Positions 1 through 18,214 of a stretch of 19,270 bases of DNA are shown piece by piece. Numbering within the stretch: the stretch's first letter is position 1; each line of letters starts with the position of its first letter. A model generated the notes under the pieces. That model made no database searches. It worked only from the letters and a program-made list of their open reading frames with translations, and was not told the origin of the DNA. Both the position numbers and the translations under genes were made by a program. Source of the stretch: a virus (lineage: Duplodnaviria; Heunggongvirae; Uroviricota; Caudoviricetes); the IMG/VR virus record IMGVR_UViG_2648501186_000011, positions 1 to 19,270 of that record; one strand, written 5' to 3'.

Positions 1-960
1 TCCACCAGACGCATAACGGAAAGTAAATCCGCGACCGTGCGCTTTGCCGGCAGAATGAGGAACGTTAAGAGTTAGATCCATGAGTCCATCTTGACCATTG
101 GTACGGAAAGCACCAAAGTAGTTAAGATCTCTCGCTGTCTGGTCTTCCAAATAGTTAGCTGTTTTGGTTAACAGATACCCACCATGCTTAGTATTGGTAT
201 TCTTCTTGATGTAAGCAGCATCGGCACTACCTTCAATAGAATCAATTCGCTGATTAGCTGCGGCAATTGCGGCATCAGTAGAAGATTTATTCTGGTCTAC
301 CTTGTTGTTAATTGCTGTATGGTTGCTATTAACTGTCCCCGTAAGATTGGTGATCTTCGTGTCGGCATCGCGTTTATTATTTGCTACGGTCGTTTCTATG
401 GATGATTTATTTGCTGCGATAGTATTCGTTAAGTTAGTAACGTTGGTATTAGTCTGATCAACTCGTGCATTAATATCTGTCTTGTTCTTGTTAATTGTTG
501 CGTTGATAGTATCGCGGGTTGAAGTAATAGTCTGATTCAGTTCAGTCTTAGCAGCCGCCAGAGCGTTAGCCGCTTCGGTTTTATTGTTACCTACTGTGGT
601 AGTCAAAGCATCAATTCGTTTGTTGGCTGCGGTGTCGCCAGCAGTGATTGAAGCATTGAGAGCATCACGGGTAGAAGTGATAGTCTGATTCAGTTCAGCT
701 TTAGCACTAGCCAGATTATTAGCGGCTTCTTGTTTGTTGGAAGCAATAACACGGTCAGTGCTAGTTTTGTTATTGTCTACTTTCGTATTCAGTTCAGCGT
801 GTTTTTCTGGAGAAACACTAATTTGGACTACGTTATTATTTTTGTCTTTGGTGTAAATCACATGATCCGCCAACTGTAAGGCGATCTCACCCTGTGATAA
901 TTGTTCCGGCGTTGGTTTTTTACCAGCCGTTTGTGTGCGTTTAAATTGGATCGACTGCAT
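1..960 (-). CDS. Tail-fibre-like protein, N-terminal 320 codons (3' end runs off the window)
   Basis: Absent from the ORF track because there is no stop inside the window. Manual minus-strand translation from ATG (plus 958-960) stays open for 320 codons to base 1: MQSIQFKRTQTAGKKPTPEQLSQGEIALQLADHVIYTKDKNNNVVQISVSPEKHAELNTK... SD AGGTGA 4 nt upstream. The N-terminus resembles the conserved start of many phage tail-fibre proteins; the body is Asn/Thr/Ala-rich and repetitive. Confidence 0.6.
   Translation of the reverse strand, partial: MQSIQFKRTQTAGKKPTPEQLSQGEIALQLADHVIYTKDKNNNVVQISVSPEKHAELNTKVDNNKTSTDRVIASNKQEAANNLASAKAELNQTITSTRDALNASITAGDTAANKRIDALTTTVGNNKTEAANALAAAKTELNQTITSTRDTINATINKNKTDINARVDQTNTNVTNLTNTIAANKSSIETTVANNKRDADTKITNLTGTVNSNHTAINNKVDQNKSSTDAAIAAANQRIDSIEGSADAAYIKKNTNTKHGGYLLTKTANYLEDQTARDLNYFGAFRTNGQDGLMDLTLNVPHSAGKAHGRGFTFRYASGG
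511..740. repeat. Imperfect ~152-bp tandem repeat inside the tail-fibre gene
   Basis: Plus 511-590 and 663-740 align at roughly 80% identity by eye (shared core tagtctgattcagttcag). In the protein this gives two copies of AKxELNQTITSTRDxxNAxI about 51 residues apart. Confidence 0.7.
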
Positions 961-974
961 CGAATCACCTCACT

Positions 975-1007
975 ATAAAACAGGAATAAGGGAGGCGTTA
1001 ACCTCCC
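975..1007 (-). terminator. Intrinsic terminator-like hairpin between the 277-aa gene and the fibre gene
   Basis: Palindrome GGGAGG-cgttaa-CCTCCC (plus 990-1007); on the minus-strand RNA it is followed by UUAUUCCUGUUUUAU. Confidence 0.5.
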
Positions 1008-1039
1008 AACGTTCATGTTTTATTTAGGTAGGAGAATCC

Positions 1040-1873
1040 TTAGTAATAACCGAAATCGATCCGGTCATGAATCGAAACTACTTCGAGTTCAGCGGCAGTA
1101 GGTTTCTCATTGGTGGAATATACCTTGATCCATTCAGAACGACCGTTTTCCTGAATATTTCGGACACGTAAACGCGGTGCGCCAGAAGTATTACAGGTTA
1201 ATTGCCATGCGCCATGCTCATTAGCTTGAAGGTGAATTAATGATGTATCAGCACCATAAGGGTTAGTGCTAGCCGTTCCTTTGTAGGTTACGAAGCGGTT
1301 TCCTGCTAATGCCTCGCTATCAATACCGCCCGTGAATGGATGTACACCAGCACCGATTCCAAAATCACCCTGACGTAAGATCTTACCTTCGGTAGCAATA
1401 CCCCTTGCCAGAATCCCGCCATCTGGTTCAAGTTTAAATTCCAGTGTTACCGCTTTGTTATCACTACCACGGGTTTTATGTGATGTGACGTAAGCATCGA
1501 ATATACAAAAGTACCCTGTGTTAGCAGCACTATAGCCAGAGTTCACAACATAGAACATACGGAAGCGTAAAGGTGTTTTATCCTCTACCGCTTTCATCAA
1601 CATTGCTTGATGTTCATCGTCAAGAACACGGTTTAATGTGAGTGTCGTCGGTTCCAGTCTACGATAACCAGCAAGTTTCCCCGTAGCGTCCTGATCGTAC
1701 TCTTCCAGAGTTTCTATCTCTGTGGATTCTGTTAACGTAGGGAATGTGGCGATGTTCTCAATAGAACTAAAGCTGGGATCGAAAAAGTCGACCTGATTGG
1801 TAAGCTGATCAGAGATTGAAATCTCTACATGGCTTCCAGTAAAAATATCTAAGTTATCATGCGTAATATTCAT
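1040..1873 (-). CDS. Hypothetical virion structural protein (277 aa), possibly a tail component
   Basis: ORF track; SD AAGGGG 5 nt upstream of the ATG (minus strand). Lies in the structural block between capsid and fibre genes. No family recognised by eye. Confidence 0.6.
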   Translation of the reverse strand: MNITHDNLDIFTGSHVEISISDQLTNQVDFFDPSFSSIENIATFPTLTESTEIETLEEYDQDATGKLAGYRRLEPTTLTLNRVLDDEHQAMLMKAVEDKTPLRFRMFYVVNSGYSAANTGYFCIFDAYVTSHKTRGSDNKAVTLEFKLEPDGGILARGIATEGKILRQGDFGIGAGVHPFTGGIDSEALAGNRFVTYKGTASTNPYGADTSLIHLQANEHGAWQLTCNTSGAPRLRVRNIQENGRSEWIKVYSTNEKPTAAELEVVSIHDRIDFGYY

Positions 1874-2609: not shown

Positions 2610-2635
2610 AAAAAAGCCCCGCACTAGGCAGGGCT
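2610..2635 (-). terminator. Intrinsic terminator downstream of the capsid gene
   Basis: Minus-strand RNA: AGCCCUGC-CUAGU-GCGGGGCU followed by UUUUUU (8-bp stem with one G.U). Sits about 110 nt after the 684-aa ORF stop, a typical place for a terminator after a highly expressed capsid gene. Confidence 0.65.
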
Positions 2636-2742: not shown

Positions 2743-4797
2743 TCATTCACCTTTTTTCTGAACTACGGTCAGTGCGCTATGGTCCATAACAGCCCAATCA
2801 AGGTCAGCCCATACGCGGAAGTACAGGTTGCCAGCCGCGCGACCTGTGGTATCGTCGCAATCCAGTTCCAGCGATCCGAAGTCTGCAATAACAAGGGAGC
2901 TAAAGTCACCAAACAGCATGGTATCCTGAGCAACTACACCAGAGCCATAGATCGGACGGTTAACCAGCTTGTCACCTTCTACCAGGAAGCCCGGAACGTT
3001 AGCAGCTTTGAGTTGCGCTGCCAGTTCAGCTTTAACAACACCACGGGTAGCAAATGCCAGATCCGCTTCGTTATAACCTTTATCGGTCAGTTCAGCTACC
3101 AGTTTCAGGAACTCGGCATAAGTCCAATCAATCTGTTTAACTTTGCCAGCATCGGTCAGCATCTTAGTCAGGCCATCACGAGCGTTAGTGTTAGCAGCAT
3201 TGGACAGAATCGCTTTTTCCAGAGCGATAGCACTATGTTTCAGCATGTGCTCACCAACGATAGCACCGATGTTAGGCAGAGTGATAGCGGCCTGGCGAGT
3301 TACAGGAACAATTCCATTGAATGTCTTAAGAGTCATCGGCTGTGCTGCAAACTTGATAGTACCTTCACCAGCGGATTGGCCTTCTGCAACAAAACCGAAG
3401 TTTTCCAGATTGCTAGAAGTCAGAGACGGCAGAGAAACAGGACCAGTTGCGTTAATGGTACGAGCGCCCAATTTACCCAGAATCGAGCGTTCCATGATCA
3501 TATCAACGAAGCAATCATGGCGGATTTCTTCACCAACTACTGGTTTCAGGGATTCCATGTTCTGACCAGCACGCAGAGCAGACGCCGGAATGAATACGGA
3601 GTTAGAACGCTGTGCGCGACCACGCGCTGCGGCTTTACGTGCTTCTTCCTGAGAATATTCAGCTTCTGCGCCAGTCAGGGCTTTACCCTCTGCGATTGCA
3701 CGCACAGCCTTATTAAGATCGAAACGGGATTCCAGAGTTTTAATGGTATCGGTCATGGTAATTTTTCCTTTAACAAAAGTTTTAGATTCGGTAGTATTTA
3801 GTGCGCGTGCTTTTTCTTTAAAATTTTCAATAGTCACGGCACTATCTTTAATTGCAGCTTCAATTACGTCTTCGGAGATATTTAGATGTTTTCCGATAGC
3901 ACGAATTTCGGCGGTATCTTCGCGAGAACGTTCAAACGGTTTTTCGTCGTCTTCAATCTTTTCTTCTTCGACTGGTTCGGATGTATTTTCCGTTTCGTCG
4001 TTCTCGTCTGTATCTTTATTTAGTTCTTCTGTTTCTTCCGGTTCATCTTCGGAACGTTCTTCTTTTTCTTCTGGCGTTACTTCTTGCGGTTCTTCCACAT
4101 CTTCGCCACTGTCAGCACTATTTCCAGAATCGGAATCAATTTCTTCATTTTCTTGTTCCTCTTTCTCTTCTTCGGAACGTTTTTCTTCATCTTCCGGTTT
4201 AATTTCTTCGACCGGAGTATCTTTAATTTCGTCTTCCACTTGTTCACCCTCCAAAACAATCATTTCGTTGTCTGTATTTAGAGAGCGTCCAACACCCGCA
4301 TTAAATGGATCTGCGGCACACGTTACAAGACTGCATTCGAAAGGTTGCCAGCGTGTAACATAATAGATCCCTTTGTTAAAATCGGCTTTGCCATCAAGAA
4401 CGTTATAACCGACGCTAACTTGTGAAAGTGTTCCCTCTTTTACCTTCTCAAAGCATTCATTAGCCAGTTGGCCTACTTTGGAGAATTGGACAAGGCAACG
4501 ACCTATACGGTCTTCGTCAATACGAGCGGAGCCAGGAACAATCTTACCGATATGAAGATCCAGATTGTGATTAAACAGAAGACTTGCGTTAGTCTCGTTT
4601 AAAACGGATAGATCAACCGCTGATTCATCGTGTACGAGAATCTCTTTTAATTCGACTTGCTCGCCGTCCTGATTCATGTAATAACGTGTATAAGGAGCCT
4701 CGCTTGAGAAAGCCAATTCAATAATTCGTTCGTCTTTTTCTTCGATAAAATCAGGGGTATCTACCGCAACACTACGACGGAATTGTTTTGTTGTCAT
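2743..4797 (-). CDS. Prohead protease / acidic linker / major capsid protein (HK97 fold) fusion, 684 aa
   Basis: N-terminal ~175 aa carry motifs I associate with HK97-type prohead proteases (LLFNHNLDLHIGK, VSVGY, ECSLVTCAADPFNAG). Residues ~185-300 are extremely Glu/Asp-rich low complexity. The C-terminal ~320 aa look like an HK97-fold capsid domain and the gene sits where a capsid gene belongs, after the portal. SD AAGGTG 4 nt upstream. Confidence 0.7.
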   Translation of the reverse strand: MTTKQFRRSVAVDTPDFIEEKDERIIELAFSSEAPYTRYYMNQDGEQVELKEILVHDESAVDLSVLNETNASLLFNHNLDLHIGKIVPGSARIDEDRIGRCLVQFSKVGQLANECFEKVKEGTLSQVSVGYNVLDGKADFNKGIYYVTRWQPFECSLVTCAADPFNAGVGRSLNTDNEMIVLEGEQVEDEIKDTPVEEIKPEDEEKRSEEEKEEQENEEIDSDSGNSADSGEDVEEPQEVTPEEKEERSEDEPEETEELNKDTDENDETENTSEPVEEEKIEDDEKPFERSREDTAEIRAIGKHLNISEDVIEAAIKDSAVTIENFKEKARALNTTESKTFVKGKITMTDTIKTLESRFDLNKAVRAIAEGKALTGAEAEYSQEEARKAAARGRAQRSNSVFIPASALRAGQNMESLKPVVGEEIRHDCFVDMIMERSILGKLGARTINATGPVSLPSLTSSNLENFGFVAEGQSAGEGTIKFAAQPMTLKTFNGIVPVTRQAAITLPNIGAIVGEHMLKHSAIALEKAILSNAANTNARDGLTKMLTDAGKVKQIDWTYAEFLKLVAELTDKGYNEADLAFATRGVVKAELAAQLKAANVPGFLVEGDKLVNRPIYGSGVVAQDTMLFGDFSSLVIADFGSLELDCDDTTGRAAGNLYFRVWADLDWAVMDHSALTVVQKKGE

Positions 4798-4817
4798 AGA
4801 TCACCTTGAAAATTATT

Positions 4818-4834
4818 GGGGGCATTGCGCCCCC
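4818..4834 (-). other. Perfect hairpin between portal and capsid genes
   Basis: GGGGGC-attgc-GCCCCC palindrome in the 43-bp gap, immediately upstream of the capsid-gene SD. No U-tract, so a processing or stability element is more likely than a terminator. Confidence 0.4.
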
Positions 4835-4840
4835 GTTGGG

Positions 4841-6364
4841 TTATTCATTTTGAGTATAAGGCGATTTTTCTTTTTCAGTTTCACCCTCACTCACGACGCA
4901 TGTATTTAGCATGTGTTTTTCAGATTCAATTTGTTTGAAAGTCTGAGCAACGTCATAACCCATTTCAGTGATAATCTGAGATTTGGATTTTAAGCCATTT
5001 TCTAACATCATTATTTCGGCTGAGATATCTTTCACCGGATCAACAGACTCAACTTTCGGCCTACTTACCGAAGTAACATCAATAATTGATTCGATCTGAG
5101 TCATTCGAATATTGAGTTTCGAATTAATCACCGCATGTTCAAGGAATGCTTGGAATAACGGTAGAATAACGGTATCAATTAAGCGATCTTGATGCGCTTT
5201 GAAGCGGTTCTTTTCCATTAATGAGCCAAATCTCGCTGCGGAGAAATTCACTGAGCTAGTATCACCAGTCAATGCGGTTTTATAGCTGGAGAGACCCATA
5301 CTAATGGACGTTAGCATTGCCTCGTTAAACGTTTCGAAGTCATCGCCGCCTTGTGTGCTTTGCACCGTCTTAATATCTTGCCCCGGTTCCAAAACGTTAA
5401 TAGTACCCGGTTCGAAATCGGTGATCATCGTCGGCGGTTGATAGTTTTCCGGTTCTTCTTCACCAACATCAAAGGAGTCTTGATTTTCTTTTTCGCTTGT
5501 GATAAACGCCATGCTACTTGCGTGCACGCGTTTGCCAATGATTACGGTTTCGCGGAATGCTTCAAGGTGAGCTATATCTTTGATTATTGGCAGAAAATCC
5601 GTACATCCGCGTAAGGCTTCGGCTGTGCTGGGGATAAAGTAATGCAGCACTCGTTCCGCTGGGATTCGTACACGTTCACCGATGAAGGATTGAGTAAACA
5701 GATCGCGCCGTCTAAACCAGTATGCAACAGGTTTTTCATCTTCGTACTCGATACCAGCATAAACGACATTACCGTTATCTAGAGTACGCTGGTCCGCCCA
5801 ATCAACATGATCCGCGCCATAGATGGACACTTGCAGATCTTTACCATCTTCATGGAGTACCAGAAACGCATCACCGCCCATCACACGCTCTTTTTCCATC
5901 AGCTTTAAGCACTCAAGGAAGTTAATCTTTCCGTTGCGTGAGAATCGTTTCTGAGAGCTAGCCCAACGCCAGAAAGCATTCTCGATTGCTGTGTTAGTGG
6001 TTGCGTCCAGCTTTTCCCCTTTCATAACGAAGGTTCGAGGCTGTAAACCAGTACCTACCACGGAATCGATGACATGTTGGCAATAACGGGAGCCGATAGA
6101 AGTGTTTAACGCAAGGTGTCGCCCTTGATTGTATAAACGTGATGCAGATCCCTTGATCGCGGCGTTAATGCTGCCAGTGATAACCTGACGCGCTGTGCTG
6201 CCTTCAATGCGATCTGATTCAACCAATCCTAATGATCGTTGATGTAGAGCCTTCGTAAATTGTTCAATCTTACGATCTACGAATAATTTGCGGTGCTGGC
6301 GAATACCGATTTTCTTAACCGGATTCACTGGCAATTCTTTTTTACGTTTGAAAAAATTAAACAT
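4841..6364 (-). CDS. Portal protein (lambda gpB-like position and size), 507 aa
   Basis: Size and position between the terminase large subunit and the capsid gene match a lambda-type portal. SD AAGGA 6 nt upstream. Family called from context, not from a motif I can pinpoint. Confidence 0.6.
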   Translation of the reverse strand: MFNFFKRKKELPVNPVKKIGIRQHRKLFVDRKIEQFTKALHQRSLGLVESDRIEGSTARQVITGSINAAIKGSASRLYNQGRHLALNTSIGSRYCQHVIDSVVGTGLQPRTFVMKGEKLDATTNTAIENAFWRWASSQKRFSRNGKINFLECLKLMEKERVMGGDAFLVLHEDGKDLQVSIYGADHVDWADQRTLDNGNVVYAGIEYEDEKPVAYWFRRRDLFTQSFIGERVRIPAERVLHYFIPSTAEALRGCTDFLPIIKDIAHLEAFRETVIIGKRVHASSMAFITSEKENQDSFDVGEEEPENYQPPTMITDFEPGTINVLEPGQDIKTVQSTQGGDDFETFNEAMLTSISMGLSSYKTALTGDTSSVNFSAARFGSLMEKNRFKAHQDRLIDTVILPLFQAFLEHAVINSKLNIRMTQIESIIDVTSVSRPKVESVDPVKDISAEIMMLENGLKSKSQIITEMGYDVAQTFKQIESEKHMLNTCVVSEGETEKEKSPYTQNE

Positions 6365-6373
6365 TTTAAATCC

Positions 6374-6871
6374 TTATCGAGTTAAGCGTACTTTAATCGG
6401 TGTGATCGGTGAGTAATTCCCAGCTTTGCGGCGTTCTTGCTGAATCAGTTTTACGAGTTGTTTTTCGTAATCCTTTTTCAGTTGCTGCAATACCGCAAGG
6501 GATTCATAGGCGAAAGAATTGCCTTTGATCGTGAGAGAACTCAACGCGCTTTCATCATTGTCTAGACGTGCAAAAATAACTTGTTCGATTAAAGAAATGG
6601 TATTTCGAAGATATTCTTTCTTTGTTTCTTTAACGAAGACTGGCAATACGGTTAATTCCTGCATGGATACCAGTTCTTCATCAAGAGTAATAACAATGGT
6701 CATCTTCCCTTCTGGAAAGTCTAACGTTTTAATCTCGTGATTTTCCGGTGCATCATCGACCTGATAGACAATGCCTTTGCTATTACCTACCTGAATGGTT
6801 ACACCCTCTTCATTCGCCAGCGTGATTTTTTCGCCTTTACGAATTACTAAGGGAATTAGTTCTAAACTCAT
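6374..6871 (-). CDS. Hypothetical protein (165 aa) in the lambda gpW position
   Basis: ORF track; SD AAGGGG 5 nt upstream. Lies between terminase and portal where lambda has gpW, but is much longer; no confident similarity. Confidence 0.55.
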   Translation of the reverse strand: MSLELIPLVIRKGEKITLANEEGVTIQVGNSKGIVYQVDDAPENHEIKTLDFPEGKMTIVITLDEELVSMQELTVLPVFVKETKKEYLRNTISLIEQVIFARLDNDESALSSLTIKGNSFAYESLAVLQQLKKDYEKQLVKLIQQERRKAGNYSPITPIKVRLTR

Positions 6872-6920
6872 AATTACCCCTTATTTAATTGTTATTGGAT
6901 TAACAATATTTAGGAGTAAA

Positions 6921-6940
6921 GCCGCCCCGCAGGACGGCAT
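6921..6940 (-). other. Hairpin immediately after the terminase large subunit stop
   Basis: Minus-strand RNA GCCGUCC-UGCG-GGGCGGC (7-bp stem with one G.U) followed by UUUACUCCU. The GCCCCGCAGG core recurs at 12944-12959. Confidence 0.4.
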
Positions 6941-6944
6941 GTGA

Positions 6945-8870
6945 TTAGAAGTTATTAACCCAGCTATTACGACGCACAGGACGCGCCATAGGACGACGAT
7001 TAGGCTTATTGTGAGGGATTGGCTTAGTTTCCTGTTTTTGCTCGTCAGAATGCGATTTAGGAGCTTCTACGGCGGTTTCTGTTTCACGGTTCAGCTTTTC
7101 TTTCAGTGCAATGAGTTTATCCCATGACATTTTTGAAAGAACATAGCGAGAAGCAGCCAGACAATACACAAAACAGTCGAGGCATTCGTTCCTCTGCGAT
7201 CCGGGATTTTTCACCCAACGTGTTCCGGTAGCGGTGCGCTTGATGGACTCACTAAGAAGCTGATCGAGATAGTCATCAGGAACGGTGTGTGATATCTCTA
7301 AGCCAATATGCGGATTATCCTTCAAGTTGCGTGTTAATAGCTCACGAACAGCGGTTTTACCGACGTTTACACCCAACATAAGCAATTCGTGACCACCCGT
7401 GGTAGTTGGCTTAACCGGAATCAGTGGAGCGTTACCGGAGGAACTCCCTTTAATGGCATGAAGATTTTTCCATTTGGTGCAAATGCGGTAGCCAGCTTGT
7501 GTAAATTTACCGTTCGAAGTATCAAGGAAACTAGCCAGAACAGGAACACGCTGGCCTGATACCGTGGTAAACCTGCTTTTCTGGAAGTTGATTAGCTTAT
7601 CCCATACAGGTGATTCGTATCTCTCACAGTTATAATCTCGGAAGACACGGTGATCGAGGATGTAAATCTTATCTTTCGCGATGCCTAGCATAGTTGACTC
7701 GACGCGATCCAACTGCTGGTCCACGCCAAATGTGGCGAAAATAACATCATCTGGGATATTTTCTACACAAACTTCGGTTTTCAGTTGTTCCAGTTCGTTG
7801 ACTTCTACCGCTGTTTCTGCGTCATCGTACACAGTGCCGAGAACTGTATTGTAAAAACTTTGTAAATCAAAGGTTTGCCACGCTTGCGAGAAGTCAGAAA
7901 CACATGATTTGATAGAGCTAAAAGGTGAATACAGACGGCTGATCCAGAATCCTGCTACATCACTTTCACGGGTAGCTCTCCATTCTCCTTGTGCAACCGC
8001 TCTAATGCGATCCCCTTCTGACCAATCACTCTGGCAATGAGGGCAAACATAACGGGCGCTTTCAACACATGGCAGATTGCGACCATCCTGATTTTTCCAC
8101 TCGAACTTAACATTTTCCCACTCGATCACCTGGTGTTTCCCGCAATGCGGACAAGGAACAAAGAATTTACGCTGATCACTTGATAACCATTGTTGATTAA
8201 TCGGTCCCAGCTTAGTGGTCGGGGTACTGGAAACGATAATTCTTGCTTCATCCCCGAAAGTGGTTGCGCGGTTAGCCGCAAGTGCAATCGGATCGCCCTC
8301 TTCACTAGCACTGGCAGCATCACATTCATCAAGCAGAATCAACGGGCTGGTTTTTGAACGCAAGGTTGATGGGCTAGTAAGCGATACCATGTAAAGAAAA
8401 TGATTAGTCTTAAGCTGAATCTGGCTATTGTTATTAACAGCGTTGCGATCATTCTTGTCGGTGATTGCTTCGCGTAATGCCGGACATGCTTCAATGGCTG
8501 GTCGGATCTTCCCGCTTAGGTACTGAGCGGTTTCCTTCGTGGTTGCTTGGCCTATGATGATATTGCTGGGATCGTTAGCTATCTTATTGAATAATATACC
8601 ATTAAGGATGGAAGTTTTGCCGATCTGGGCACTTGTACAAAAAATGTACTTTTTCTTATTCTCTAAGAAAGGAGCATCAATCATGCCTTTCTGAAAGCTG
8701 GTTAATTTAATTTTAGCGCCAGCTTGTGGTCCATCCACTAGGATCATGTTTTCCTCGCACCATTCAGATGGTAAACGCTTAATTGGCGGTCGGATATGTT
8801 TTGATACTTCGTTAAAAATTCGCTTGAGTTTAAATTTATTTGAGAGTTTTTTCACCGTGATTATCCTCAT
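6945..8870 (-). CDS. Terminase large subunit, lambda gpA family (641 aa)
   Basis: Similar in length to lambda gpA as I recall it. Walker A-like [10 protein letters not shown], Walker B-like [11 protein letters not shown], a Cys pair [13 protein letters not shown], and a C-terminal [16 protein letters not shown] that resembles the lambda gpA C-terminus (from memory). No SD before the ATG, and an in-frame stop 18 nt upstream excludes a longer N-terminus. Confidence 0.85.
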
Positions 8871-8925: not shown

Positions 8926-9531
8926 ATGCTAATTAATCAGCAACAAAGAGATGAATTAGAATTAGCATTTTCTTATTGTACCGGTCATGAATATCGTTTA
9001 CCAGTTAAGCACAAGCATTTAAAAACAGATATAACCACTTCTGGCTTTAGTCGTGATGAAGCGAAACAGATTTTAATCGAGTTGTATCGCGATCATGGGT
9101 ATACCGATATTCATAACTTCTTTAAGAAGCATCGCACATCACAGACAGAGTTCCAGAGAGTCCGTGAATGGTTTGATTTTGATATCAAGCGTTATTATCG
9201 AGTGGATGACGGTCCTATCTATCGGTTGCAGTGGACACCGATCAGGGAAGTGTTGAAACAGAAGAGATTGAATCATGCCATTACACGCTATCGTAACGAG
9301 GCTTTCAAGAAAGGCTATGGTGATACAAGGGAACTATTCGTTGAACTCGCTAACGTGAAATATAGCCACTATTACAACGATCCTACAGGGTTCTTCGAAG
9401 TGCTTCGCAAGGTTGATATTAGTCGGGGTACATATTATTCACGGCTGAGGAAGTACGGGATTAAGGCAGAGTTCTTTATGTCGGTTGACGACTCACCCAT
9501 GTTCAAGATAAAATCTAAGTCCTCTAAATAA
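8926..9531 (+). CDS. Hypothetical basic protein (201 aa) with C-terminal HTH-like motif
   Basis: ORF track; SD AAGGGGG 5 nt upstream. The C-terminal VDISRGTYYSRLRKYGIK resembles the recognition helix of the two small GRP-HTH proteins in this window. Confidence 0.6.
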   Translation: MLINQQQRDELELAFSYCTGHEYRLPVKHKHLKTDITTSGFSRDEAKQILIELYRDHGYTDIHNFFKKHRTSQTEFQRVREWFDFDIKRYYRVDDGPIYRLQWTPIREVLKQKRLNHAITRYRNEAFKKGYGDTRELFVELANVKYSHYYNDPTGFFEVLRKVDISRGTYYSRLRKYGIKAEFFMSVDDSPMFKIKSKSSK

Positions 9532-17348: not shown

Positions 17349-17906
17349 TTACGACACATCAAATTCATCGTCTTCTTGTTCTTCTTCCGGTTCTTCCTGC
17401 TTCACTTCCTCATCTTCTGAGTATTCATCGTAGGCATCAAGATCCGGTGAAATCATAATATCCCCGATCTCATTCAAACGAGCGGAAATGATATCCTTCA
17501 ATGTTTCTTTCAAAGTACGCTGATCCGTTGCAGCTTCCATAATTTTTAGAGTGTCTACCGTCGCCACCTGCATCATGGTCTGGCGTACATCACCACAAAA
17601 TCCGGCTAGAACTGTTTCTACATAACCTACAGGAATCAGATCATTTAGTTCGGTGCGGTTCTTAAGTTCGATGGCATCGGCCTCGCCTCTCGCCTTTCTT
17701 AATCGTTCTTGTTGGATCTGCGCTTGTACATCCACTTCCCTAAGTGGGTTAATGATGTTCTCAAGCACCCAGGCGATCGCTCTATCCCGTGGACAACGGC
17801 GGGTATTCGTATTATACGGAAGACCACGATCACGCCATTTCTGAACAGCCGGAAGGGAATACCCATACATTTTAGATAATTCGGTTAAAGTTACTTCTTG
17901 CGTCAT
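17349..17906 (-). CDS. Terminase small subunit, lambda Nu1 family (186 aa; start refined from 17981)
   Basis: ATG at 17904-17906 has SD AGAGGA 7 nt upstream; the ORF-track start has none. N-terminal HTH LTELSKMYGYSLPAVQKWRDRGLPY and central ERLRKARGEADAIELKN...VETVLAGFCGDV parallel lambda Nu1 as I recall it. Acidic C-terminal tail. Confidence 0.65.
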   Translation of the reverse strand: MTQEVTLTELSKMYGYSLPAVQKWRDRGLPYNTNTRRCPRDRAIAWVLENIINPLREVDVQAQIQQERLRKARGEADAIELKNRTELNDLIPVGYVETVLAGFCGDVRQTMMQVATVDTLKIMEAATDQRTLKETLKDIISARLNEIGDIMISPDLDAYDEYSEDEEVKQEEPEEEQEDDEFDVS

Positions 17907-18214
17907 GAAACTATCCTCTGAGCTAAAAATATGCGTAATTGTATTTAGACGAAATACGCAATATAACGGCCTATAACGCAATTTAAGAAAATCCCATGTG
18001 ACGGGGCGTTGAGAAGTGATTTAGCTCGTTGTAGGGCTTGTTTGGTGGCTTAACTAAACCAATTTGAAAAAGGCACAAGCGAGATTTAAACCGCGCCGGG
18101 CAAAACACGCCCTCTTTTGCCACCTATCACAGTACCTTTTTGTTGTCAAGTCTTTTTTATCGAATATTTTAAATTTTTTCATCTTTTTTCTCGTGCATTC
18201 ATCCGTTTTTTTCT

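What the first reader, a model, noticed from the sequence alone, without database searches (positions are those of the whole stretch)
2743..4797. Prohead protease, acidic linker and major capsid protein encoded as one 684-aa polypeptide
HK97-type systems normally have separate protease and capsid genes. Here the protease motifs, a ~110-residue Glu/Asp-rich segment and the capsid domain are one ORF with no stop or frameshift. The acidic segment could act as a built-in scaffold or DNA mimic removed during maturation.
Basis: partly seen in the sequence, partly recalled or inferred. Interest (0 to 1): 0.6.

Follow-up and report, generated by a model that had tools for sequence, protein, structure and literature searches.

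The report
Phage protease–capsid fusion gene, probably nested
This is a real but already well-known kind of phage gene in which the head-maturation protease, a flexible acidic spacer and the major capsid protein share one reading frame; sequence evidence suggests that most capsid protein is made from a second start codon inside the gene.

Summary
A 684-codon ORF lies on the minus strand at 2743-4797. It encodes an S78 (HK97-type) prohead serine protease domain with its catalytic His77 and Ser128, a disordered 114-residue linker (49% Asp/Glu, net charge -44), a small three-helix module, a short propeptide and an HK97-fold capsid domain. Five independent complete E. coli genomes examined carry the same uninterrupted ORF, so it is not an assembly error.

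The claim of unusualness is not supported. Protease-(scaffold)-capsid fusions are a named, widespread architecture: NCBIfam NF045541, PHROG 617 and 4523, the SEA-PHAGES 'major capsid and protease fusion', and at least 541 IMG/VR loci.

The new point is that the ORF is probably not read as one polypeptide only. Codon adaptation doubles (0.33 to 0.66) exactly at in-frame ATG Met348. That ATG has a Shine-Dalgarno-like AAAGGA 9 nt upstream, conserved in diverged relatives. It marks a recombination junction and starts a product the same length as stand-alone capsid proteins of other phages. A second internal start follows the protease domain (GTG187 here) and is enriched across the whole family.

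The likely mechanism is a lambda C/Nu3-like nested gene. Bulk capsid protein would come from Met348, and a minority full-length fusion would carry the protease into the prohead. This is inferred, not shown.

The parts
2743..4797 (-). Complete 684-codon ORF (ATG 4797-4795, TGA 2745-2743): protease, acidic linker, helical module, propeptide and HK97-fold capsid protein.
   Evidence: PHROG 617 matches the full length (E=1.2e-68). The ORF is intact in five other E. coli genomes examined.
4799..4807 (-). Shine-Dalgarno-like AAGGTGATC, ending 1 nt before the first ATG (full-length product).
   Evidence: Sequence read. Duplex energy with the 16S 3' end is -4.1 kcal/mol.
4273..4740 (-). S78 (HK97-type) prohead serine protease domain, about aa 20-175. 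Catalytic His77 is at 4569-4567 and Ser128 at 4416-4414.
   Evidence: Pfam PF04586 is above its cut-off. NF045541 matches the N-terminal part (E=3e-38). His77 and Ser128 align with HK97 gp4 His65 and Ser114 and are invariant in relatives down to 25% identity. The AlphaFold model of aa 1-182 (pLDDT 77) has T4 gp21 protease 5jbl as its best PDB match (prob 0.98, TM 0.5).
4237..4252 (-). Candidate internal start A: GGAGGGTGA (4252-4244) followed by in-frame GTG187 (4239-4237), directly after the protease domain.
   Evidence: It has the strongest SD pairing of any in-frame start in the ORF (-9.8 kcal/mol). Equivalent SD plus start sites occur in R4C, VP882 and DCP80. Such sites are enriched family-wide: 48% against 7% per equal-sized control window, n=62.
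3910..4251 (-). Acidic, disordered linker, aa 183-296 (49% D/E, net charge -44).
   Evidence: An in-frame 6-aa indel occurs here among E. coli copies. There is no significant tandem repeat.
3778..3909 (-). Conserved three-helix module, aa 297-340 (EIRAIGKHLNISEDVIEAAIKD..FKEKA), function unknown. It is a possible scaffold-like or capsid-binding element.
   Evidence: Helices at 292-304, 309-317 and 323-333, with pLDDT about 68-78. Ile298, Ala315 and Phe326 are invariant across relatives at 25-73% identity. The same module forms the N-terminus of a stand-alone 409-aa capsid protein, P0147.
3754..3771 (-). Candidate internal start B: AAAGGA (3771-3766), a 9-nt spacer, then in-frame ATG Met348 (3756-3754). 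This is the proposed start of the bulk capsid precursor (337 aa).
   Evidence: It has the best SD of all in-frame ATGs. SD plus ATG is conserved in four enteric relatives and in DCP80, even where the protein sequence differs. The codon-adaptation change-point is at codon 347. The local RNA is weakly structured. The site lies in a predicted disordered stretch, aa 334-350.
3547..3756 (-). Short delta-like propeptide, aa 348 to about 417, predicted to be helical and probably cleaved off.
   Evidence: TIGR01554 aligns from model position 47. Helices at 352-391. The R4C virion chain begins at a position equivalent to about aa 417.
2746..3546 (-). HK97-fold major capsid domain, aa about 418-684 (presumed mature protein).
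   Evidence: Pfam PF05065. phmmer against 8gta gives E=2.9e-11. Foldseek best hits are 8gta and HK97 proheads or heads.
2615..2635 (-). Intrinsic-terminator-like hairpin plus T-run about 110 nt after the stop codon.
   Evidence: HK97 has an annotated putative terminator in the same place after gp5.
4818..4834 (-). G+C-rich hairpin between the portal gene and the fusion gene.
   Evidence: HK97 has an annotated putative terminator in the equivalent place before gp4.
4841..8870 (-). Upstream head module: gpA-type large terminase (6945-8870), a 165-aa head-tail joining-like protein (6374-6871) and a lambda-family portal (4841-6364).
   Evidence: The gene order is the same in R4C, ECO1230-10 and VP882.

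Best explanation
Identity (near certain). This is the head-maturation protease / major capsid protein fusion gene of an E. coli prophage with a lambda-type terminase and portal. It is an ordinary member of a large family of such fusions.

Mechanism (inferred). The ORF works as a nested gene, in these steps:
1. Ribosomes starting at ATG1 make a minority 684-aa protein. It consists of the S78 protease, a roughly 114-aa acidic flexible tether, a three-helix module, a propeptide and the capsid domain.
2. Ribosomes starting at the internal ATG Met348, which has its own Shine-Dalgarno-like sequence, make the bulk 337-aa capsid precursor. GTG187 may give a third, protease-less product.
3. The few full-length molecules co-assemble into the prohead through their capsid domain. 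This places tethered protease inside the shell at a stoichiometry set by the ratio of initiation events.
4. After assembly the protease cuts the roughly 70-aa propeptide from every subunit, cuts its own tether and degrades itself. This leaves a mature capsid protein of about 268 aa (from about aa 417).

The ORF, the domains and the sequence signals are shown. Use of the internal starts, co-assembly and the cleavage sites are inferred.
For: Identity:
- The domain hits, the catalytic His77/Ser128 and the fold matches support the assignment.
- The fusion is conserved in E. coli and Salmonella prophages and in sequenced phages.

Nested translation:
1. Codon adaptation was measured without Glu/Lys/Asp codons, using weights derived here from 30 E. 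coli K-12 ribosomal-protein, elongation-factor and rpoA genes. It is 0.33 (aa 1-186), 0.33 (aa 187-296), 0.34 (aa 297-347) and 0.66 (aa 348-684). The six neighbouring phage genes measured score 0.29-0.34. The best change-point is codon 347, and Mann-Whitney p=2.5e-10 for the protease domain against aa 348-684.
2. The same step occurs at the equivalent ATG in four relatives whose capsid modules are only about 50-60% identical in DNA: 0.33 to 0.65, 0.32 to 0.79, 0.31 to 0.68 and 0.31 to 0.81. Rare Gly codons GGA/GGG fall from 31-50% of Gly codons upstream to 0-12% downstream.
3. Control: in HK97, where the genes are separate, gp4 protease scores 0.34 and gp5 0.51-0.53. The discarded delta domain scores 0.51. 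Adaptation therefore follows the translation unit and not retention in the virion.
4. Met348 has the best SD of all in-frame ATGs. AAAGGA or AAGGTGA plus ATG is conserved even where the peptide differs.
5. Recombination junctions sit at this point. Identity to L010 is about 100% up to codon 330 and about 55-60% after it.
6. Stand-alone capsid proteins of 341-347 aa in other phages start at the same position as Met348.
7. An SD plus ATG directly after the protease domain is found in 48% of 62 diverse fusion genes, against 7% per equal-sized control window.
8. The mature R4C capsid chain contains only the C-terminal 268 residues.
Against: - No protein, ribosome-profiling or N-terminal sequencing data are available for this gene or for any relative. 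No paper describing internal initiation in such fusions was found in ten literature searches.
- The first ATG also has a good ribosome-binding sequence, so nothing in the sequence shows that the full-length product is rare.
- Glu-rich coding sequence generates GGAG/GAGG motifs by chance, which weakens the evidence for the GTG187 site in this particular gene.
- Codon adaptation does not rise at GTG187 in this lineage, so that start may be little used here.
- The sequences used for the enrichment test are related, so the binomial p-values are overstated.
Confidence: 0.6

Rival explanations
1. Single-polypeptide model. Every capsid subunit is synthesised as the 684-aa fusion. The acidic linker and helical module act as a built-in scaffold at 1:1 stoichiometry. 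Each subunit's protease then removes the whole N-terminal part of about 417 aa after assembly.
For: - The ORF is uninterrupted and the fusion is conserved in hundreds of relatives.
- The literature describes such genes as protease-scaffold-capsid fusions (PMC7302621).
- The first ATG has a good SD.
- My own estimate, not a tool result: about 415 copies of a 40-46 kDa N-terminal part would fill roughly half of a T=7 prohead interior. This is crowded but not impossible.
Against: - A twofold step in codon adaptation inside a single translation unit is not expected. HK97's discarded delta domain is as well adapted as its mature capsid part.
- The step, the SD plus ATG and the recombination junction all coincide at Met348 in five lineages.
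Confidence: 0.28
2. The codon-usage step is only a historical trace of mosaic recombination. A capsid module from a phage with a separately expressed capsid gene was recently joined to a protease-linker module, and no internal start is in use today.
For: Sharp recombination junctions lie near codon 335-360 between otherwise near-identical prophages.
Against: Three capsid modules that differ by 40-50% in DNA are each highly adapted, and each is joined to a poorly adapted N-terminal part. The contrast is therefore maintained and not transient. Junctions at that point are what is expected at a functional gene boundary.
Confidence: 0.08
3. Artefact: a sequencing or assembly error hides a stop codon or frameshift between separate protease and capsid genes.
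For: None found.
Against: The same ORF occurs in five independent complete genomes from different countries and hosts. The indels are only in-frame. More than 100 homologues have the same length.
Confidence: 0.01
4. The acidic linker is a DNA mimic (Ocr/ArdA-like) with an anti-restriction or DNA-exclusion role, rather than a flexible tether or spacer.
For: It has a high negative charge density (net -44 over 114 residues).
Against: - It is predicted to be fully disordered, whereas known DNA mimics are folded (the second part is my own knowledge).
- Its length varies by indels.
- Most family members have non-acidic linkers.
- It has no Pfam, NCBIfam or PHROG match of its own.
- Its poorly adapted codons argue for low abundance.
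Confidence: 0.03

Closest known systems
Prohead protease / major capsid protein fusion genes: Pfam architecture Peptidase_S78 + Phage_capsid; PHROG 617 and 4523; NCBIfam NF045541; SEA-PHAGES 'major capsid and protease fusion protein'. Examples: roseophage R4C gp6, E. coli phages ECO1230-10 and ep3, Vibrio VP882, Halomonas phiHAP-1, actinophage clusters EE/AN/EL, thaumarchaeal proviruses.
   Same: - The domain order is the same: an N-terminal S78 protease with the catalytic His and Ser, a low-complexity linker, a helical module and a C-terminal HK97-fold capsid domain.
- The gene sits in the same place, directly after a lambda-family portal and a gpA-type terminase.
- The R4C virion retains only the C-terminal capsid part.
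   Different: - Only 25-36% identical to any sequenced phage, and no megablast match in the phage collection.
- The linker is among the longest and most acidic of 65 examined.
- It scores 131.8 bits against NF045541, far below that narrow model's cut-off of 525.
- The enteric subgroup has an additional internal ATG plus SD (Met348) with a sharp codon-usage step. No paper found here describes this.
Phage HK97 gp4 (protease) and gp5 (capsid protein with delta domain)
   Same: - Same protease family and catalytic residues (His65/Ser114 align with His77/Ser128).
- Same capsid fold.
- An N-terminal propeptide acts as the scaffold and is cut off.
- Hairpin or terminator-like elements flank the protease-capsid unit.
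- The capsid part is codon-optimised relative to the protease.
   Different: - HK97 has two separate genes. Its protease enters the prohead through its own C-terminal targeting region (my knowledge of Duda et al. 2013, not tested here).
- HK97's delta domain is 102-103 aa of coiled coil. Here the propeptide downstream of Met348 is only about 70 aa.
- Whether the capsid is cross-linked as in HK97 was not examined.
Phage lambda C / Nu3 and other nested protease-scaffold genes (Mu I/Z, P2 gpO); from my own knowledge of the literature
   Same: An in-frame internal start inside a protease ORF gives an abundant protease-less assembly protein and a rare full-length protease with the same C-terminus. 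The shared C-terminus carries the protease into the prohead. The SD plus start found after the protease domain across this family matches that layout.
   Different: In lambda the nested product is a scaffold and the capsid protein gpE is a separate gene. Here the shared C-terminal part would be the capsid protein itself. The protease family also differs: lambda gpC is an S49/ClpP-like peptidase and not S78 (my knowledge). Use of the internal starts is unproven here.

Membership tests
S78 protease - HK97-fold capsid fusion (Peptidase_S78 + Phage_capsid architecture) | N-terminal domain matches Peptidase_S78 above the curated cut-off | tested here: met
   PF04586 scores 39.1 bits against a cut-off of 21, E=1.1e-9. 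The fold model's best PDB hit is T4 gp21 protease.
S78 protease - HK97-fold capsid fusion (Peptidase_S78 + Phage_capsid architecture) | Catalytic His and Ser of the HK97 gp4-type protease are present | tested here: met
   His77 and Ser128 align with HK97 gp4 His65 and Ser114. They are invariant in 9 relatives down to 25% identity. That His65 and Ser114 are the catalytic residues is from my own knowledge.
S78 protease - HK97-fold capsid fusion (Peptidase_S78 + Phage_capsid architecture) | C-terminal HK97-fold major capsid domain | tested here: met
   PF05065 scores 55.6 bits against a cut-off of 24.2. TIGR01554 scores 50.9 against 27.5. Foldseek best hits are 8gta and HK97.
S78 protease - HK97-fold capsid fusion (Peptidase_S78 + Phage_capsid architecture) | Both domains lie in one uninterrupted ORF, reproducibly | tested here: met
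   The ORF is intact in the window and in five other E. coli genomes examined. More than 100 homologues have a similar length.
S78 protease - HK97-fold capsid fusion (Peptidase_S78 + Phage_capsid architecture) | N-terminal part is removed, so the virion holds only the capsid domain | not testable with these tools
   Known only by analogy: the R4C gene encodes 629 aa and its virion chain has 268 aa.
NCBIfam NF045541 (scaf_prot_MCP2, 'prohead protease/major capsid protein fusion protein') | Whole-protein score at or above the curated cut-off of 525 bits | tested here: not met
   The score is 131.8 bits, and only model positions 3-298 of 634 match. The protein shares the architecture but is not a member of that narrow 'exception' model.
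PHROG 617 (major head protein; fusion-length profile of 626 positions) | Full-length match to the profile | tested here: met
   E=1.2e-68; aa 12-680 match profile positions 15-622.
Nested protease/assembly-protein genes (lambda C/Nu3 type) | In-frame internal start codon with a ribosome-binding sequence inside the protease ORF | tested here: met
   GTG187 with GGAGGGTGA and ATG348 with AAAGGA. The post-protease site is enriched family-wide.
Nested protease/assembly-protein genes (lambda C/Nu3 type) | Two or more co-terminal protein products are actually made | not testable with these tools
   Only indirect evidence is available: the codon-adaptation step at codon 347-348 in five lineages, with the HK97 control.
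HK97-type capsid with delta domain and covalent cross-links | Coiled-coil delta domain of about 100 aa at the N-terminus of the capsid protein | tested here: inconclusive
   TIGR01554 aligns only from model position 47. Helices at 352-391 are predicted, but the propeptide after Met348 is only about 70 aa.
HK97-type capsid with delta domain and covalent cross-links | Lys-Asn isopeptide cross-link residues and the catalytic Glu | not tested
   The pairwise alignment to gp5 was too weak (25% identity over 83 residues) to map these positions.

The most novel reading that the evidence does not exclude
The fusion ORF is a three-in-one nested gene. Its co-terminal products would start at ATG1 (protease-tether-capsid), GTG187 (tether/scaffold-capsid) and ATG348 (capsid precursor). 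The protease would be packaged by being covalently part of a few capsid subunits, so the protease-to-capsid ratio would be set purely by competing translation starts. If the post-protease internal start is used across the family, most annotated 'protease-capsid fusions' would be nested genes of the lambda C/Nu3 type extended to the capsid protein itself. I found no description of this.
Probability: 0.5. Interest if true: 0.5.

Novelty: new member of a known kind. Interest (0 to 1): 0.33.

Why it matters
As reported, the finding is ordinary. It is one more prophage copy of a known fusion architecture, and annotation pipelines already name it.

Its modest value lies in the added inference. Fusion genes of this type are routinely annotated as a single protein. 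That raises an unanswered question: how can a shell of about 415 subunits tolerate 415 proteases and linkers? The codon-usage step, the conserved internal ribosome-binding sites and the recombination junction give a specific, cheap-to-test answer, namely nested initiation.

If confirmed, three things would follow:
- The annotation of hundreds of phage capsid genes would need correcting.
- It would explain how the protease is targeted without a separate targeting tail.
- It would be useful to anyone expressing these capsids as nanocontainers. Expression from Met348 should give protease-free shells.

Tried and rejected
- Megablast of the gene against 50,697 phage records found nothing. Only protein-level search found relatives.
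- Ten literature searches were run. They confirmed that the fusion is known, but none described internal initiation in it. The CBASS escape preprint concerns protease-scaffold fusions of T1-like phages, not capsid fusions. The R4C structure paper does not mention the protease or any cleavage. A 2026 ribosome-profiling preprint on HFTV1 could not be opened.
- Binning SD plus start sites by column of a 70-sequence alignment failed, because the linkers do not align (1625 columns). I replaced it with motif anchors. The regex anchor for the second site (the RYSL motif) was found in only part of the sequences. No family-wide statistic is therefore given for the Met348-type site. It appears confined to the enteric subgroup and a few others.
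- The first codon-adaptation table was recalled from memory. It was checked against weights computed from 30 K-12 genes (r=0.976), and the result held.
- Raw CAI of the acidic linker is inflated, because GAA and AAA are both the optimal and the A+T-rich codons. Glu, Lys and Asp codons were therefore excluded.
- No sigma-70-like promoter was found on the coding strand inside the ORF. No meaningful tandem repeat was found in the linker.
- Foldseek with the full-length model returned only capsid hits, so the protease domain had to be modelled separately.
- An assembly-error explanation was considered and rejected.
Full report
**1. Checking the observation**

The window holds a 684-codon ORF at exactly 2743-4797, but on the minus strand (ATG 4797-4795, TGA 2745-2743).

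- Pfam places Peptidase_S78 on aa 59-162 (E=1.1e-9, 39.1 bits, cut-off 21).
- Pfam places Phage_capsid on aa 427-680 (E=7e-15, 55.6 bits, cut-off 24.2).
- NCBIfam TIGR01554 (HK97-family major capsid) matches the last 337 residues. TIGR01543 (HK97 proheadase) matches aa 67-163 below its own cut-off.
- Residues 183-296 (114 aa) are 49% Asp/Glu with net charge -44.

**2. Not an artefact**

Megablast found the gene in E. coli chromosomes only: 7 of 5,426 complete genomes have at least 80% coverage. Five of these were fetched. All are annotated with one CDS of 684-693 aa at 98-99% identity to the window protein. The only length changes are an in-frame six-residue indel (PEEEIK) inside the acidic linker and the last few residues. 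The 120 best-scoring of 449 homologues in the protein collection, mostly from Salmonella and E. coli, are 616-694 aa. All but one carry both Pfam domains. A hidden frameshift or mis-assembly is excluded.

**3. Domain anatomy**

- *Protease.* HK97 gp4 aligns so that its His65 and Ser114 fall on His77 and Ser128. That these are the catalytic residues of gp4 is from my own knowledge. Both are invariant in nine relatives down to 25% identity, as are Glu154 and Asp163.
- *Full-length AlphaFold model* (21-sequence alignment, mean pLDDT 63):
  - a beta-rich domain at aa 20-158 (pLDDT 70-85);
  - disorder from 160 to 286 (pLDDT about 25-30);
  - three helices at 292-333;
  - a second disordered stretch at 334-350;
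  - helices at 352-391;
  - then the capsid fold.
- *Capsid fold.* Foldseek against the PDB gives the R4C capsid (8gta) as the best hit, with HK97 proheads and heads, P4/SaPI procapsids and encapsulins among the other top hits.
- *Protease fold.* The N-terminal 182 residues modelled alone (pLDDT 77) have the T4 gp21 prohead protease (5jbl) as their only specific hit: prob 0.98, TM about 0.5, with later hits below prob 0.3.
- *Gene context.* Upstream lie a gpA-type large terminase, a small head-tail joining-like protein and a lambda-family portal. Roseophage R4C, E. coli phage ECO1230-10 and Vibrio phage VP882 have the same order.

**4. The architecture is already known**

- PHROG 617 (626 positions) matches the full length (E=1.2e-68). 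PHROG 4523 is named 'major head and protease protein'.
- NCBIfam NF045541 is named 'prohead protease/major capsid protein fusion protein'. It matches the N-terminal half (E=3e-38), although far below its narrow cut-off.
- tblastn finds fusion-length matches in 64 phage records, several annotated 'major capsid protein and protease'.
- An IMG/VR scan found at least 541 related loci.
- Of the 149 cluster representatives (50% identity level) closest to the capsid part, 109 are of fusion length. Of 78 scanned, all have Phage_capsid and 42 have Peptidase_S78.
- Published descriptions include thaumarchaeal proviruses (PMC6563490), Rhodobacter cluster RcC (PMC8601537), Arthrobacter cluster AN (PMC6606914) and Microbacterium phages. 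The last paper calls a 'protease-scaffold-capsid fusion' a common feature of small siphoviruses (PMC7302621).

**5. The acidic linker**

All 65 fusion genes examined have an inter-domain segment of 71-184 aa (median 126). Only 15 of them, the window's nearer relatives, reach 40% Asp/Glu over a 60-residue stretch. The window's linker is among the longest and most acidic. It is predicted to be disordered, varies by in-frame indels, has no significant repeat structure and has no family match of its own. The general requirement therefore seems to be a flexible spacer. Strong negative charge is a lineage-specific elaboration. Nothing supports a DNA-mimic role.

**6. Evidence that the ORF is not translated only as one polypeptide**

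*(a) Codon adaptation.* Weights were computed here from 30 E. coli K-12 ribosomal-protein, elongation-factor and rpoA genes. Glu, Lys and Asp codons were left out, because their optimal codons are also the A+T-rich ones.

| Segment | Adaptation index |
|---|---|
| aa 1-186 | 0.33 |
| aa 187-296 | 0.33 |
| aa 297-347 | 0.34 |
| aa 348-684 | 0.66 |
| Six neighbouring phage genes measured | 0.29-0.34 |

The best single change-point is codon 347 (t=-7.9). Mann-Whitney p=2.5e-10 for the protease domain against aa 348-684.

*(b) The step is conserved.* It recurs at the equivalent position in four relatives: 0.33 to 0.65, 0.32 to 0.79, 0.31 to 0.68 and 0.31 to 0.81. Their capsid modules differ from the window's by 40-50% in DNA. 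Rare Gly codons GGA/GGG make up 31-50% of Gly codons upstream and 0-12% downstream.

*(c) Control.* In HK97, where the genes are separate, gp4 scores 0.34 and gp5 0.51-0.53. The delta domain, which is cut off and discarded, scores 0.51. Adaptation therefore follows the translation unit and not retention in the virion.

*(d) An internal ribosome-binding site.* Codon 348 is an in-frame ATG preceded by AAAGGA with a 9-nt spacer. This is the best Shine-Dalgarno pairing of all in-frame ATGs in the ORF. The signal is kept in three of the four enteric relatives. In P0008 the local peptide differs (SKSKGDNM), but the DNA still reads AAAAGGTGATAAC-ATG. In DCP80 it reads AAAGGAAATTCGTACT-ATG. The surrounding RNA is weakly structured (z=+0.5).

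*(e) A recombination junction.* The window is about 100% identical to L010 over codons 31-330 and about 55-60% identical after that. It is about 90% identical to L013 up to codon 360 and about 50% after that. In mosaic phages such junctions typically fall at gene boundaries (my own knowledge).

*(f) Equivalence to stand-alone capsid genes.* Stand-alone capsid proteins of 341-347 aa in other phages begin at the same position relative to the conserved RYSL/RFDL motif as Met348.

**7. A second internal start**

GTG187 has the strongest Shine-Dalgarno pairing in the ORF (GGAGGGTGA, -9.8 kcal/mol). It lies directly after the protease domain. Equivalent sites occur in R4C (ATG189, -9.5), VP882 (ATG185, -7.1) and DCP80 (ATG180, -6.2).

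In 62 diverse fusion genes, an in-frame ATG with pairing of -5.5 kcal/mol or stronger lies 2-35 codons after the protease's GxGR motif in 48%. The rate per equal-sized window elsewhere is 7% (nominal binomial p about 1e-18). For -7 kcal/mol and any start codon the figures are 26% against 3%. The sequences are related, so these p-values are overstated, but the enrichment is large.

In DCP80 the codon-adaptation step falls at this first site, not the second. In the window's lineage adaptation does not rise at codon 187, so that start is probably minor here.

**8. Most likely mechanism**

The pattern matches nested protease/assembly genes such as lambda C/Nu3 (my own knowledge), extended to the capsid protein itself.

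1. A minority full-length protein carries the protease on a long acidic tether.
2. The bulk 337-aa capsid precursor starts at Met348.
3. The full-length molecules co-assemble through their capsid domain, which places protease inside the prohead.
4. The protease then removes the roughly 70-aa propeptide from all subunits and frees and destroys itself.

By analogy with R4C (gene 629 aa, virion chain 268 aa aligned to aa 421-672), the mature protein would start near residue 417.

The ORF, the domains, the sequence signals and the codon statistics are shown. Use of the internal starts, co-assembly and the cleavage sites are inferred. I put the nested model at about 0.6, the single-polypeptide model at about 0.3 and the remaining explanations at about 0.1.

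**9. Verdict**

This gene is a new member of it, from an E. coli prophage lineage not represented at the DNA level among sequenced phages. The only element that might interest a specialist is the indirect but consistent evidence for nested initiation, which is easily tested. Interest is modest.

Noticed in passing
window 4818-4834 (-) and 2615-2635 (-): G+C-rich hairpins flank the fusion gene. The downstream one is a good intrinsic-terminator candidate (8-bp stem plus a T-run). HK97 has annotated putative terminators in the same two places around gp4-gp5.
   Followed up: partly
L010 8286-9323 and 261-1247 (relative carrying P0008): In this close relative a 345-aa gene with weak CapR (PF21817) and faint DUF723 hits is inserted directly after the fusion gene. 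A 328-aa paralogue-like gene lies upstream of the terminase. Both are absent from the window. They look like morons placed next to the capsid gene.
   Followed up: no
H2 (E. coli HCP5S3_I4, NZ_CM149869.1 2468050-2471712): In one genome the matched stretch is interrupted by an IS2 (IS3-family) element, so that prophage copy looks inactivated.
   Followed up: no
L006 (Escherichia phage DCP80, PQ671644.1 1.7-7.8 kb): This 141-kb record is classified as Straboviridae (T4-like). It nevertheless carries a terminase, a 513-aa ORF in the portal position and a protease-capsid fusion in the same order as the window, mostly annotated 'hypothetical protein'. The fusion is the best phage match to the window protein (36% identity). 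The record may be chimeric or misclassified.
   Followed up: no
window 8926-9531 (+): A 201-aa ORF is divergently oriented from the large terminase and has no Pfam match. A 201-aa gene on the opposite strand sits in the same place in relatives L010 and L012.
   Followed up: no
window 17349-17981 (-): A 210-aa ORF has a weak, sub-threshold Nu1 (small terminase) match (E=1.1e-4). It lies about 8.5 kb from the large terminase gene, and no small-terminase gene is evident next to TerL.
   Followed up: no
window 1-1040: This stretch matches the 5' part of a 'tail fiber domain-containing protein' gene in E. coli prophages (88-95% identity). That ORF runs off the window's end, so it is missing from the ORF list.
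   Followed up: partly
window 3778-3909 (-), aa 297-340: A conserved three-helix module (EI.aiG....i....i..Ai.dg.t.e.F) lies between the linker and Met348 in all fusion relatives examined. It also forms the N-terminus of a stand-alone 409-aa capsid protein (P0147). Its role is unknown, and under the nested model it would be absent from the bulk capsid precursor.
   Followed up: partly
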